NCBI GenBank assembly: GCA_951406725.2
Contig: OX597817.1
Coordinates: forward strand, 12,028,001 to 12,092,000
DNA length: 64,000 nt
Reading direction: 5' to 3'
DNA from: Octopus vulgaris
Taxonomy: Eukaryota
Made by a program: the position numbers and the translations under genes. Below are positions 4,891 to 44,468 of the stretch, piece after piece (the first letter of the stretch is position 1; each line of letters opens with the position of its first letter). The notes under the pieces were generated by a model that had not been told where the DNA came from, did no database searches, and saw only the letters and a list, made by a program, of their open reading frames with translations.

Positions 4891-5100
4891 AAGTCAATCC
4901 AAAGATGAAAACACCAAGAGAAAACACAACAACGCGAGGACGTGGAACAAATATAGTATTATTGGACGCTCAGGAAGGACGGGAAGAAGGAGGGTTTAAC
5001 GTTTTGAGCGGAGCTCTTCGTCGGAAACATAGGCGAAGGAAAGACCCAGAGAAGGGAAAACGGAGGAAAAAAATCGCCAACGGTACACACGCGGTCACAT
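4891..5100 (-). mobile_element. ~200-bp hammerhead-bearing repeat (family H1, putative PLE-derived); catalytic core mutated in this copy
   Basis: Homologous to 10261, 32937 and 44262; flanked by (TA)n; minus-strand core reads CCGACGA...AAAA instead of CTGACGA...GAAA. Confidence 0.75.
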
Positions 5101-8100
5101 ATATATGTATATATATATATATATATATATAGATAGATATATATATATATATATATATATACGTGTATGTATGTAAATATTTATATACGTATAGATGTAT
5201 GTCTATATAGTATATATATAGATATATATATATATATATATATATATATATATATATATATATATATATATATATATATATATATGCGTGTGTTTATGAA
5301 TTGTCTATGAATGTTTGTCTGTGCATGTATTTTATGGTTGTCCCTTTGCATTCAAATAAAAATTAGACGTTTTGCTTTCCCATGCATGTTTTTTTCTTTA
5401 TATATTTTCTTTCCATGACGTCTAGAGAAATTTTAATAAATTTTGAATTCATTGTATGCGGCATGTAGTACATCCCCAGCGTAACTTAATTATTCAAAGT
5501 CTCCTCTGAGTTAGTTTCTCTTTGCTCCTTTTAGTTTTAATTATATACGTGCGTGTGTGTATGTTTGTGAATGAGTACATATGCATATATATATATATAT
5601 ATATGTGTGCGTGTGTGTATGTGCATGTGTGTGTGTGTGGTGTGTGTTAGAGCGTGTACTCTGTGTGTTTGGTCTATCTGTCCTCTCTCTCTCTCCCTCT
5701 CTCTCTCACTCTCTCTCTCTCTCTCTCTGTATGTTCTTTATATCTTTATATTCCTTTACCATAGATAATGTCACCATTTTCTCTTTTACCGCTTATTCTT
5801 TTTCTCTTTCACTCATACGCGCACGTACGCACGCACATACACACACACACGCAAACATACACACACACACGCAAACATACACACACACACACAAGCTCCT
5901 CTCTTTCTTTCCTTCCTTTCACTCTGCTTGCAACTAAATAAATATCTCAGCCACACTCCAGAACTTTCGTTTTCTTTTACTTATACATCAACTTGACACA
6001 TCTGTTGGACTTCCAAATTCCCTCAACTGTATTACATTTCAAATGTTCCATCCATCTACATCTTGGGCGTTAACAGTTATTTTCCATTTTCTTATTTTTT
6101 CTTCTCATTTTTTTTTATTCTACGTTGTTTCTTTCTTCACAATCACAGAAATTTGTCATTTTTGTAAATCGCTTTTAGAATCACAGTCGACATTTCATGT
6201 TCTGTTTTCAAATACGAGGAAAATATCAGTATTTGGCGGAGCCGTACGCAACTGCTTGATAGACACACAGGTGAATTGAATGAAGTATGGGAGTATCTTG
6301 CAGTACACCCACAATATACCCGCGTACACACATACATATACACGTACATACACGTACACACTCAACAGATATGTCTGTGTATAAATACATACACACACAC
6401 ATAAAGATTTATATATATATATATATATATATATATATACATATATATATATATATATATATATATATATACATATATATACATATACATATACATATAC
6501 ATATATATAAACACACACGCACACACACACACGTATATATATATATACGTATTCAGATACATACATGTATGTGTGTGTGAGCGTGTGTGTGTATGTGTCT
6601 GTGTGTGTGTGTGTGTATTTGTATGCATATGCGTATATCGGTTTGGTAGAACAAACAGGATAAATAGAACTCAATACATGAGTATATATATTTTATTATT
6701 TTTAATCAGCAGAAGTTAGAATAGTGAATTAAGAGTCAACAGCTTCGTAGACTGCTTTACATAATACATACACATACACACAAACATGCACACACACAAT
6801 CACACGCACACACATTCACACACACTCACACGCCCCCTCACATACACTATATATATATATATATATATATAACTATTACAACTATTAGCGGTTTGAGTTT
6901 GGCTGCTCGCGAAGAATTTTTTCTAGAATTTTTTTGCTACCCTTATATTTATTAATATATATATAACGTGTATTCAAAATAATCTTCAGACTCATGGCAT
7001 ATGATTCGTTTAACCTGTAAACCATGACGCTGTTACATGTGAAACCACGAGAAAAAAAGTGGAATGAGAGAACAAGGGTCGAATATAAACGGAAAAAGAA
7101 AGGAAACAAACAAAAAAAAAGTATACTGAGAGTTATGTCCCCGTTCACCGTAGAAATCATGACTAATCTAGACGGTGTAGAATAATTCAACGGTGAGGAG
7201 TACAAAAGCTTATGAGACAACTGCTCAATTCGGAAATGATGGTGTCTGCCAGTTCGACAGCGGAAATTTGTCCATGTGCTAGCATTTGCTGAAAATTTCA
7301 TATCAGGAAATAAGTAGTCTGGTGGAATTCTTGGACTTAAAAAGAATGTGCGCATAAGTTGCATCTCTTTGATCCATTTACATATGGAATAGATTTCTCC
7401 TTGATTCTCCACTTGATTGCATGTGGTGTGTGGTTGATCTTCAGACCCATATGTGGCTAGCCAACATAGTGGCTTTTATTTTTATCGATGTGCCGGAAAG
7501 AATACTAGTGGTTTGCATAACGTTTTTTAAAGTTGCTTTCGCATAAACCGACATACATTTTCTTTTCACTTCCGTTCCCTTGAAGCACTGCTGTGACTTC
7601 AGCCTCATATATGACTGAGTCTTCAAAACACGCCTGATCTAGTGGGTAAGCTTAAGGGTCGAGATCGTTACGATTGGGAGTGGTCTTTTTGTCAGGCTTG
7701 TGAGTGACAATGTCCTTCATATTGGGACATTAACTGTATTTCCAGGGTGCCCAGTAAGAAAAAATAAACCACGATTATTATTGGCTATCAGGTTTTTAAA
7801 CATTACAGTGGATGGTGGGTACTGACAGGATTGTTTATGTATATATGTGAGTTTTTCAACAAGGACGGCGCAGTGGTACGACTGAAAGAGCGGTGGGAAT
7901 GATGTCATGCGATATCTGCTCTAGTTCTTTGCGTTCTGACACCAACACCAGCGATGACGTTGGTGCCAAGCCTTATCGGTTCAAAGATAGTCGCCTTTCA
8001 CTTAGATGACGCCAGTGGCAGGGAAAGAGGAGAATTATATGCATGGGCAACTTCCAGACCTGTATACACGAGACCCGTTATTTGATCAACCTTGACCAAC

Positions 8101-8833
8101 AAAGAGACAAGATCAGAAATGACCGAGTATGAAGATGAATAAATTATAGAACTCAAAACGGCAAACGATTCTTTAGAATAAATTCTTACTGAATGTCTGA
8201 AAACGTCAGTACTCTGAATTTCGCGTTGCCACTCTGCTGATAATCTGAGCCTTAAATCATTGAAATTCTTTAATATATATTTTCAAATTTTCCAAAAGTA
8301 TATCCGAAAAAAGCCTTACTTAGGACATTTTTAAAGTTATTCCAGTGACACTATATATACAAGGTTGCATCAGGATCATGTTTTCTATTATGCTAATTTA
8401 TTTCATACTCTCGTGGTTATACAATATTCTCCAAATATTTTCATGGCTTCTATTAATCGCTACACATAAGGCAACTTAATACAATCTCTTTTCTAAGAAA
8501 ATCTCCGTTGTTTTTTCAACGCTTTCTAAAAGAAATATCTGAGAGAGAATTGCCACTTTCAAAACATATATATATTTGTTTTCCTTATATATCTTCATCA
8601 TAGATCGAAAAGAATATGATTCAAGTTAAAATATAATACGTTCAAGATACAGAGCCGATATTACTTTTATAGCACTGACGATATATGGTGCCTCCCAACA
8701 GTGCAAATGTTTAATGCGTCCTTCGAAAAGTTGCACTTTTGTAAGGTAACACCCAGTTAATATATATGTATGGATTGATAGATGGATACATAAATGGATG
8801 CATAGATATATGTGCATATATGTATTCATTTAG

Positions 8834-9030
8834 TCTTTTACTTGTTTCAGTCATTTGACTACGGCCATGCTGGAGAAACGCCTTTGGGCGTTATAGTCGA
8901 AAGATCGACCCCTAGAATTATTCTTTGTAAGCTTAGAACTTATTTTATTGGTATCTTTTGCCGAAGTGCTAACTTATGGGGAAGTAAACACACCAACATC
9001 GGTTCTCAAGCGATGCTGGGTGGATAGAGA
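8834..9030 (-). mobile_element. SINE family A, 3' half, diverged
   Basis: CTTTTACTTGTTTCAGTCATTTGACTACGGCCATGCTGGAG tail; partly duplicated in inverted orientation at 10750-10878. Confidence 0.8.
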
Positions 9031-9510
9031 CACACATACATGCATTCATACATACATACATACATACATACATACATACATACATGCATACATACATACA
9101 TACATACATACATACATACAAATATACGTACATATATATATATATATATATATATACAATATATATATATATATATATATATATATATATATATATATAT
9201 ATATATATATATATATATACATACATACATATATATGATTATAAATAAGGGCTAAAAAGAAAAAAGTTCCCTATGCCAATATGCTGAAGAATAGACTTTA
9301 AGATTCCGAGTTCGTTTCCAGGCAGTGACCTGAATAATAATAATAATAATAATAATAATAATAATAATAATAATAATAATAATAATAATAATAATAATAA
9401 TAATAATAATAATAATAATAATAACAACAACAACAAGAACAACAACAAGAACAAGAACAACAACGAAAAAGTACCTTAGGAATGAGAACTCAGGTTCGAA
9501 ATTACCCCAA

Positions 9511-43091: not shown

Positions 43092-43269
43092 TTATAAAGG
43101 TTATTTTTCTTGATTAGATTTTTTTTTTTCGAATGTGACTTTATTTGTGAATTTAAGCAAAATGCAATTGAGAGGAAATATTGAAGACTAAGGATTAGAT
43201 AGAACTTCGGCACTCCCCGCCCCTGTTCTTAATAATAATGGCTCCTGATTTACCTAGTTCTGTGCAAAT

Positions 43270-43620
43270 CTTTTACCCAGGGCTTCCATTTCTACATCCT
43301 TTATGCTCTGCTGGAATCTACTAATTGGTTATTAAAAAAGCATAGCTCCTCCCAATGATAAGAGAGCTACAGATCTTATACATCGTTGATAGGCGGTTAA
43401 TGGGTCTGTAGTCTTGTAAGGTGTTGTGCCTTTTTATCGTATAGAGAAAGTAACTTATGACTTGTGTAAAACTTGGCCGGCCGGACAAGCATTTGGGAAT
43501 TTTTACGGTATTATTGTACACATTCAGTTTTGGTAGATACTGGACAGATTTTTTCAACCAGAAATTTGCAATCCCATGGAACCCTGGTAGTCTTCAAGCT
43601 GCTTGTTTTACAGATACCTT
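43270..43620 (-). pseudogene. R4/Dong-clade reverse transcriptase fragment
   Basis: Minus-strand PGFHGIANFWLKK, DYRPINRLSTMYKI and IPAEHKGCRNGS motifs in order. Confidence 0.75.
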
Positions 43621-44261
43621 TATGGTCTAAGTGATGTTGATACCTGACCATTTCGGACAATCAAGCAACATTTTCCCCAACTGTTTTAGGAGTAGAGGTG
43701 AACCAAAGTCGGAATTTAATGCAAATAACGACAGCTGAGACTCAGCCAGAAGTGAGTGGCTTCGCGAGGGGCAGATCACCTGGTCAGTATTTTTTTTTTT
43801 ATGAATTTTAAGGTTACATAGGTTCAATGCTATCGACTAATTCATTCTCCTCAAAGTTCTAAATTAGAAACCACTAAATGTGGTGAACCGGCAAAATCTT
43901 AGAGCATCGAAAATAAATACCTTGTGGTATTTATTCTGGGTCTTTACATTTTGAGATTAAAACCCACCAAGGTCAGTTTTGCCTTTCATGCCTCCATGTT
44001 CGATAAAATAACCTATCAGCTAATTATTGAGAGCAACCTCACAATTACTGGTCTTGTTCCTAAATCAGGGGCCATTATTATTAAGAACAGGGTCGTGGAG
44101 TGCCGAAGTTCAATCTAATCCTTAGACTTCAATATTTCCTCTCAGTTGCATTTTGTTTGAATTATTGCTTGATTATCGTACATTATATACCTAGTTCTGT
44201 GCAAATATGTATATATACATATGTATGCATGTGTGTGCGTGTATGTGTGTGCGTATATATA

Positions 44262-44468
44262 TGTGACCGCTTGTGTATCGTTGGCGATTTTCTTTCTCCG
44301 TCTTCCCTTCCTTGGACCTTTCCTCTTTCTATGTTTCTGACGAAGAGGTTCGTTCGAAACGTTAAATCCTCCTTCATTCTTTCCTTTTCTGAGCGTCCAA
44401 TAACACTATACTTGTTCCACGTCTTCGCGTTGTTGTGTTTTCTCTTTGTTCATGTTTGGATTAACTAC
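44262..44468 (+). mobile_element. Family H1 hammerhead-bearing repeat
   Basis: GTTT-CTGACGA-A-GAGGTTCGTTC-GAAAC-GTT-AAAT at 44333-44367; TA-rich flanks. Confidence 0.8.

What the first reader, a model, noticed from the sequence alone, without database searches (positions are those of the whole stretch)
4891..44468. A ~200-bp non-coding repeat family carrying a hammerhead ribozyme core, found only in microsatellites (family H1, 4 copies)
Seen: copies at 4891-5100(-), 10261-10440(-), 32937-33132(-) and 44262-44468(+) all contain (C)TGACGA-A-GAGC-NNN-GCTC-GAAAC-GTT or a variant of it. The stem-II loop varies (TCC/TTT) while the stem is kept in three copies. Helix I is short (GTTT/AAAY) and helix III is the palindrome ACGT. 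All four lie in or abut (TA)n tracts and have no Pol III boxes, ORF or TIRs. Known: minimal type-I hammerheads with palindromic helix III that cleave as dimers are hallmarks of Penelope-like element pLTRs and non-LTR retrozymes. Inference: this is a high-copy, non-autonomous, ribozyme-processed retroelement with a microsatellite preference, mobilised by PLE RT. PLE RT and GIY-YIG relics occur in the same window.
Basis: partly seen in the sequence, partly recalled or inferred. Interest (0 to 1): 0.78.

Follow-up and report, generated by a model that had tools for sequence, protein, structure and literature searches.

The report
Solo ends of a Penelope retrotransposon
The four ~200-base repeats are the ribozyme-bearing end piece of a ~5-kb protein-coding Penelope-like jumping gene in the same genome, present as tens of thousands of solo copies that likely arise when its reverse transcriptase primes on a TA repeat and runs off the front of its own uncut RNA.

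Summary
The repeat is real and carries a minimal type-I hammerhead, but only the copy at 10261-10440 has an intact core. Walking out from related copies in the same genome shows that H1 is the pseudo-LTR (pLTR) of a ~5.1-kb Penelope-like element: pLTR - ORF (RT, Cx4CxxC linker, C-terminal GIY-YIG) - CA-rich 3' UTR - pLTR (Neptune type). It is not an independent element. About 3-4 x 10^4 solo copies are estimated. The 3' end is fixed at the element's own short TA tract and abuts (TA)n. The 5' ends are not random: 49 of 56 fall in a 30-base window about 60-90 bases upstream of the ribozyme, and none at the cleavage site. Every subfamily has both solo and ORF-linked copies, and one amplified subfamily carries a weakened core (U4C). 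So solos are most likely run-off cDNAs of uncleaved transcripts, not ribozyme-processed retrozymes. The PLE RT relic in the window belongs to another family. Hammerheads in pLTRs, solo pLTRs and TA bias are published. The sharp 5' boundary and the pLTR-ORF start-pLTR minis (24 of 30 loci holding the ORF start) are the new, testable part.

The parts
4891..5102 (-). Solo pLTR copy c1 (U4C subfamily; also G12A, core predicted inactive)
4994..5028 (-). Degenerate minimal type-I hammerhead in c1
10261..10440 (-). Solo pLTR copy c2, about 20-25 bases shorter at the 5' end
10352..10386 (-). Only canonical minimal type-I hammerhead of the four; predicted cleavage between 10356 and 10355
   Evidence: folding
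32937..33135 (-). Solo pLTR copy c3, older divergent subfamily (73-75% to the others)
33028..33062 (-). Hammerhead in c3, helix III palindrome lost
44259..44467 (+). Solo pLTR copy c4; its position 1 = 44262 is the numbering used in this report (C3 = 76, cleavage after 102, 3' end 206)
44333..44367 (+). Hammerhead in c4, stem II partly broken
49409..49707 (-). Decayed PLE RT fragment of a different family; not the parent of H1

Best explanation
H1 is the ~215-base pseudo-LTR of a ~5.1-kb Neptune-type Penelope-like retrotransposon of this genome, and the solo copies are likely run-off cDNAs made from its uncleaved transcript. Shown: the structure pLTR - short TA tract - ORF (RT, Cx4CxxC, GIY-YIG) - CA-rich 3' UTR - pLTR; a fixed 3' end inside the element's own TA tract; 5' ends piled up at -14..+15. 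Inferred: the GIY-YIG domain nicks a (TA)n target; the nicked strand pairs with the short UA tract at the pLTR/ORF junction near the 5' end of the RNA; RT copies back through the intact hammerhead and runs off at the transcription start (an Inr-like TCATT at about -10..-6), giving a solo pLTR. If RT re-primes further down the RNA it gives pLTR-ORF start-pLTR minis. Longer 5'-truncated and full copies would come from tandem read-through (or circular) RNA. Hammerhead cleavage defines neither end of H1.
For: 30 of 30 loci found with the 296 bases upstream of one copy carry H1 directly downstream; 6 of 17 extended ones reach a GIY-YIG C-terminus; L068, L113, L111, L273, L274 show RT/EN-UTR-H1 and H1-ORF junctions; 21 of 30 loci found with the ORF start have H1 directly upstream by BLAST. 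RT is 58% identical to intact RT+GIY-YIG proteins. 3' end at 205-207 in 29 of 29 non-self loci; subfamily-specific letters just before the TA tract are kept in solos, the ORF start behind it only in the 18 ORF-next copies; (TA)3 or longer follows in 118 of 154 vs 5.9% of random positions. 5' ends of copies picked by their 3' half only: 49 of 56 at -14..+15, 6 at 16..125, 1 further upstream, 0 at 98-108; 6 of 7 near-full copies in the grid sample agree by profile coordinates. All clusters (K=2-4) hold solo and ORF-linked copies; U4C is in 28 of 158, ORF-linked ones included. 24 of 30 ORF-start loci jump from 165-938 bases into the ORF region to a new H1, no two junctions identical. Fits PMC11167929 (RT starts internally near the ORF start; uncut RNA is the main substrate) and PMC2377424 (Penelope transcript starts inside the pLTR).
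Against: The transcription start was not measured; the Inr-like motif is short and likely by chance in pyrimidine-rich DNA. A predicted 7-bp hairpin (-9.6 kcal/mol) spans -13..+9 and could instead stall RT or be a processing site; TA/TG microhomology at -3..+3 and +9..+16 could add to the peak and blurs positions by a few bases. Copies were the best 30 of 40 scored per search, so young close copies are favoured. Two junctions in the ORF-start set start near the cleavage site (L151 at 104, L144 at 106). No intact ORF was seen. No target-site duplication in 38 solos with unique 5' flanks (0 of 38 at 8 bases or more; shuffled mean 0.74). Neptune was not separated from Nematis by a tree.
Confidence: 0.62

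Rival explanations
1. Same parent element, but the 5' boundary is set by RT stalling or processing at the hairpin at -13..+9, or by microhomology with the TA/TG target, on tandem or circular RNA; not by run-off at the transcription start.
For: Hairpin predicted exactly across the hotspot; palindromes at pLTR 5' ends are described in Adineta (PMC3846280, passages); many junctions fall in TATGTG/GTGT stretches next to microsatellites.
Against: 14 of 56 ends sit at -9..-6, mostly without microhomology beyond one base, with only 2 events further upstream; the sister family H2 shows similar-length copies without an obvious equivalent stem (by eye); a 7-bp stem is a weak block (inference).
Confidence: 0.25
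2. H1 solos are a self-propagating non-autonomous element (promoter + hammerhead + TA priming tail) derived from the pLTR and mobilised in trans.
For: Solos outnumber ORF pieces greatly (9 vs 0 in 600 kb); uniform length; one cluster is 29 solos of 33; Penelope pLTRs suffice for transcription (PMC2377424) and pLTR-derived retrozymes exist (bioRxiv 10.64898/2026.07.22.740005).
Against: No solo-only subfamily; no tandem arrays and no ends at the cleavage site; solos lack the ORF start, which in the one PLE tested is needed for activity (PMC11167929); no excess conservation of the core within the family (0.947 vs mean 0.926, median 0.956).
Confidence: 0.1
3. Solos arise by recombination between the two pLTRs of full-length insertions, like solo LTRs.
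For: Suggested for some Adineta solo pLTRs (PMC3846280); pLTR-flanked copies exist (L273, L274).
Against: 5' ends vary base by base across a 30-base window; upstream pLTRs of near-full copies extend at least ~180 bases into the UTR, so recombination would leave longer solos; needs tens of thousands of full insertions, while no ORF piece was seen in 600 kb.
Confidence: 0.03

Closest known systems
Neptune (or Nematis) clade EN+ Penelope-like elements (PMC8557442, passages)
   Same: Single ORF with RT, Cx2-5CxxC linker, C-terminal GIY-YIG with CCHH; pLTRs in partial tandems; inverted 5' pieces; hammerhead in pLTR; microsatellite bias without visible TSD.
   Different: 3' UTR of about 1-1.9 kb of CA-rich low-complexity DNA; hammerhead and 3' end lie ~250-360 bases upstream of the start codon; no 30-40-base tail seen; solos dominate by orders of magnitude.
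Minimal hammerheads of metazoan PLE pLTRs (PMC4209133, parts 1-2 of 4)
   Same: Helix I 4 bp, extra base before stem II, G10.1-C11.1, palindromic 15.2-16.2, thousands of single dispersed motifs ascribed to truncated PLEs.
   Different: Stem II is 4 bp, not 7-8; U17 in most copies; an amplified U4C subfamily; here the parent and the non-random 5' boundary are mapped.
Non-LTR retrozymes (PMC7229834 passages; bioRxiv 10.64898/2026.07.22.740005 parts 1-3 of 5)
   Same: 170-400-base non-coding unit with type-I hammerhead, related to a pLTR.
   Different: H1 is monomeric, not tandem; the ribozyme is internal and sets no boundary; circRNA untested. The pLTR-ORF start-pLTR minis have two hammerheads and resemble precursors, but each has its own junction.
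Poseidon_Ac of Anolis (PMC11167929, parts 1-2 of 4)
   Same: Internal RT start near the 5' part of the RNA, AT-rich target, hammerhead dispensable for insertion in vitro.
   Different: There priming is at a site not homologous to the target; here the end falls in an element-encoded TA tract matching the (TA)n target.

Membership tests
EN+ Penelope-like element (parent) | One ORF with PLE-type RT and C-terminal GIY-YIG | tested here: met
   L274 aligns along an intact 889-aa RT+GIY-YIG protein, residues 168-883, over frameshifts; Pfam names on the homologs; my own broken fragments gave no relevant Pfam hit.
EN+ Penelope-like element (parent) | pLTRs and partial-tandem or inverted arrangement | tested here: met
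   L273, L274, L111, L113; inverted pieces in L118/L079, L034, L053.
EN+ Penelope-like element (parent) | Minimal type-I hammerhead in the pLTR | tested here: met
   51 of 158 copies fully canonical.
EN+ Penelope-like element (parent) | Optional 30-40-base tail at the 3' end | tested here: not met
   Of 172 copies reaching the 3' end, 18 continue into the ORF start and the rest end in the TA tract or flank; score threshold would miss extensions under about 20 bases.
Neptune clade | Cx2-5CxxC linker between RT and EN, CCHH in EN | tested here: met
   Read in L274, L085 and L062 translations; linker in 37 of 54 homologs. Shared with Nematis; excludes Penelope/Poseidon, Hydra, Naiad.
Neptune clade | RT phylogeny with reference clades | not testable with these tools
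   No named Neptune/Nematis references on hand.
Non-LTR retrozyme | Tandem repeats with a hammerhead in each unit | tested here: not met
   One adjacent H1-H1 pair, separated by (TA)n, among 189 copies; sample, not census.
Non-LTR retrozyme | Unit bounded or processed at the ribozyme cleavage site | tested here: not met
   0 of 56 5' ends at 98-108; 3' ends ~104 bases downstream of it.
Non-LTR retrozyme | Self-cleavage and circular RNA | not testable with these tools
   Bench test; predicted folds favour a non-hammerhead hairpin (-7.7 vs -2.6 kcal/mol; double hammerhead -3.3 vs cofold -22.5), ignoring tertiary contacts and protein help.
Non-LTR retrozyme | Amplifies independently of the parent | tested here: not met
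   No solo-only cluster among 158 aligned copies; no repeated junction among 24 minis.

The most novel reading that the evidence does not exclude
Solo pLTRs of Penelope-like elements are strong-stop-like cDNAs: RT primes by pairing a nicked (TA)n target with the element's own UA tract near the RNA 5' end, copies through an uncut hammerhead and runs off at the transcription start. Re-priming downstream makes two-hammerhead pLTR-ORF start-pLTR minis, the raw material of retrozymes. Tens of thousands of insertions then map the start site, the priming site and the jumps of a PLE in vivo.
Probability: 0.5. Interest if true: 0.62.

Novelty: new member of a known kind. Interest (0 to 1): 0.4.

Why it matters
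As a family it is ordinary: a Neptune-type PLE whose hammerhead-bearing pLTR litters the genome. It matters for annotation (a ~200-base 'SINE-like' repeat that is really a PLE end) and for PLE mechanism, which is still open: how pLTRs and tandems form, how (TA)n is targeted and what the hammerhead does. The end distributions give direct predictions (start site near -9, priming in the UA tract, uncut template, short-range re-priming) that 5' RACE and an in vitro TPRT assay can test.

Tried and rejected
Rfam scan: only microsatellite-driven miRNA matches among the 150 of 189 listed, no hammerhead. The repeat finder was swamped by microsatellites. Idea that 5' ends peak at the cleavage site (prompted by L151, L144): rejected, 0 of 56. 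Idea that the TA tail is made by the element with a TSD beyond it: no TSD in 38; slippage is not excluded. Window RT relic as partner: rejected. Excess core conservation inside the family: not found. Covariation: one pair (helix I closing, G-C/G-U in H1 vs C-G in sister family H2) changes on both sides, in effect one event among 11 sequences; A72 pairs with U106 in 21 of 23, confounded by descent. The C8 cluster (L108-L110) holds ORF bodies without H1 and was set aside. RNA: no RNA holder listed and no raw reads; contigs of four runs cover the stretch with summed depth far higher on H1 than on the ORF start, which is no copy number and no evidence of expression. Earlier findings of the scan: nothing by sequence or words. 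Literature searches listed no paper on run-off solo pLTRs or on this family; Repbase, Dfam, subscription papers (including the original Neptune description) and supplements were not seen, so either may be in print. 'Octopus' as a search word was my guess of the host from recall, not verified.
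Full report
Observation. The four copies exist as described and align over ~200 bases. Only c2 has the full canonical core; c1 has U4C and G12A, c3 lacks the helix III palindrome, c4 has a broken stem II. The motif is not chance: 5 descriptor hits in 664 kb against 0 in five shuffles. 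Positions below use c4 numbering (1 = window 44262; C3 = 76; cleavage after 102; end 206).

Copy number. The window lies in a 2.8-Gb genome; c4 gave 2915 first-look candidates, 40 scored. In 60 grid-spaced 10-kb stretches (600 kb) I found 7 near-full and 2 partial H1 copies and no piece of the ORF: about 33,000-42,000 copies (Poisson range 13,000-80,000). Divergence from subfamily majority is 3-6%.

The parent. In 29 of 29 non-self loci the 3' end was fixed, while several continued upstream in shared sequence. All 30 loci retrieved with that upstream piece carry H1 behind it. Further upstream lies 1-1.5 kb of CA-rich low-complexity DNA, then in 6 of 17 extended loci the end of a GIY-YIG domain. 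Searching with that end gave copies 5'-truncated at scattered points through EN and RT. L111 shows EN-UTR-H1, a short TA tract, then the 5' end of the next ORF. Of 30 loci retrieved with the ORF start, 21 have H1 directly upstream by BLAST, four more show its last bases. L274 reads pLTR-ORF-UTR-pLTR with 5,062 bases between pLTR starts (second pLTR internally deleted), start codon 256 bases after the pLTR; L273 is the same with an ORF deletion. The RT is 58% identical to intact 840-900-aa RT+GIY-YIG proteins. A Cx4CxxC linker, C-terminal EN with CCHH and a hammerhead place it with Neptune or Nematis by the criteria in PMC8557442 (passages). All ORFs I read were broken. The RT relic at window 49.4-49.7 kb is another family.

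The 3' end. Of 172 copies reaching it (189 distinct copies collected), 18 run into the ORF start; of the other 154, 118 are followed by (TA)3 or more and 140 by some microsatellite, against 5.9% and 9.6% of random positions. Solos keep subfamily-specific letters up to the TA tract and nothing behind it. I infer priming inside the element's UA tract by a nicked (TA)n target. The 5' flank is a microsatellite in only 55 of 93 solos, and no TSD was found in the other 38.

The 5' end. I retrieved 60 loci with the 3' half only (positions 125 onward; best 30 of 40 scored in each of two searches) and dropped four (two query copies, one of each of two duplicated pairs). Of 56, 49 start at -14..+15, 6 at 16..125, 1 further upstream and 0 at 98-108; 30-fold more per base than downstream. 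Fourteen start at -9..-6, on an Inr-like TCATT (motif recalled, weak). A 7-bp hairpin spans the same place. Penelope's transcript starts inside its pLTR (PMC2377424, passages), and Poseidon_Ac RT starts internally near the ORF start on uncut RNA (PMC11167929). Run-off at the RNA 5' end is therefore my best reading; it is inferred, and no RNA data could test it.

Minis. 24 of the 30 ORF-start loci break off 165-938 bases after the TA tract and join a new H1, nine of them at -7..-5; junctions are all different, one pair within 5 bases. This suggests re-priming a short way down the RNA after run-off. The query favoured breaks beyond ~165 bases. Two H1 starts in this set lie near the cleavage site, too few to read.

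Ribozyme. 51 of 158 aligned copies are canonical; the core is not more conserved than the rest within the family, as expected for neutral copies. U4C marks a subfamily of 28 that includes ORF-linked copies; U4C lowers activity in vitro but allowed viroid infectivity (PMC3088659, passages). A sister family H2 keeps stem II with another loop, swaps the helix I closing pair, and has U or C at A6. Predicted folds favour an inactive hairpin, in line with the low activity reported for such motifs (PMC4209133). Selection on the fold in master elements is likely; cleavage is untested.

Against a retrozyme. Retrozymes are tandem units with a hammerhead each (PMC7229834, passages; bioRxiv 10.64898/2026.07.22.740005). 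H1 is monomeric, its ends ignore the cleavage site, and every cluster mixes solos with ORF-linked copies (the UTR-linked class was sampled with one subfamily's query).

Verdict. Known kind: solo pLTRs of a Neptune-type PLE (parent identity about 95% sure; run-off mechanism about 60%). Single dispersed minimal hammerheads from truncated PLEs, solo pLTRs (PMC3846280) and TA bias are in print. Seven searches listed no account of the sharp 5' boundary or of the minis; repeat databases, subscription papers and supplements were not seen. PMC6962438 (passages) only counts hammerheads in a squid genome. Interest 0.4.

Noticed in passing
L276-L295; L219, L234, L261, L268, L270: Sister family H2: ~200-base TA-ended repeat of the same build with U or C at hammerhead position A6 (14 and 2 of the 16 cores matched in 20 loci); 1229 first-look candidates; not in the window; parent ORF not sought.
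   Followed up: partly
L123, L126, L127, L129-L133, L135-L151: pLTR-ORF start-pLTR minis, many with two hammerheads 370-1150 bases apart; possible sources of small circular RNA.
   Followed up: partly
window 9508-9560 (+): Another hammerhead-like core (CTGATGA, 4-bp stem II with 15-base loop, GAAA) in a repeat that also occurs inverted near 9255-9433 / 9710-9888; different family.
   Followed up: no
L108-L110 (G000:C8:24.52-24.53 Mb): Three copies of the ORF body ~6-6.4 kb apart without the 3' UTR end or H1; probably a local duplication.
   Followed up: partly
L039, L163: Copies sharing the H1 hammerhead and 3' half but with a different 5' part from position ~58; possibly a third sister family.
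   Followed up: no
window 51927-53933 (+): 668-codon stop-free frame with RT motifs of a non-LTR (LINE) type; a 3' fragment of the same element at about 13230-13490.
   Followed up: no
window 16098-16959 (-), 20976-21864 (+): Decayed mariner/Tc1-like transposase frames (by eye from translations).
   Followed up: no
window 11724-12131, 15278-15710, 25916-26366, 36115-36417, 42667-43124, 62230-62657: A very abundant ~250-400-base two-part interspersed repeat family next to TA tracts; H1 copies elsewhere insert at its TA tail (L186).
   Followed up: no
L074 2538-4822 (+), L068 1599-2123 (-): Pieces of other PLE families (RT and GIY-YIG), showing several PLE clades in this genome.
   Followed up: no
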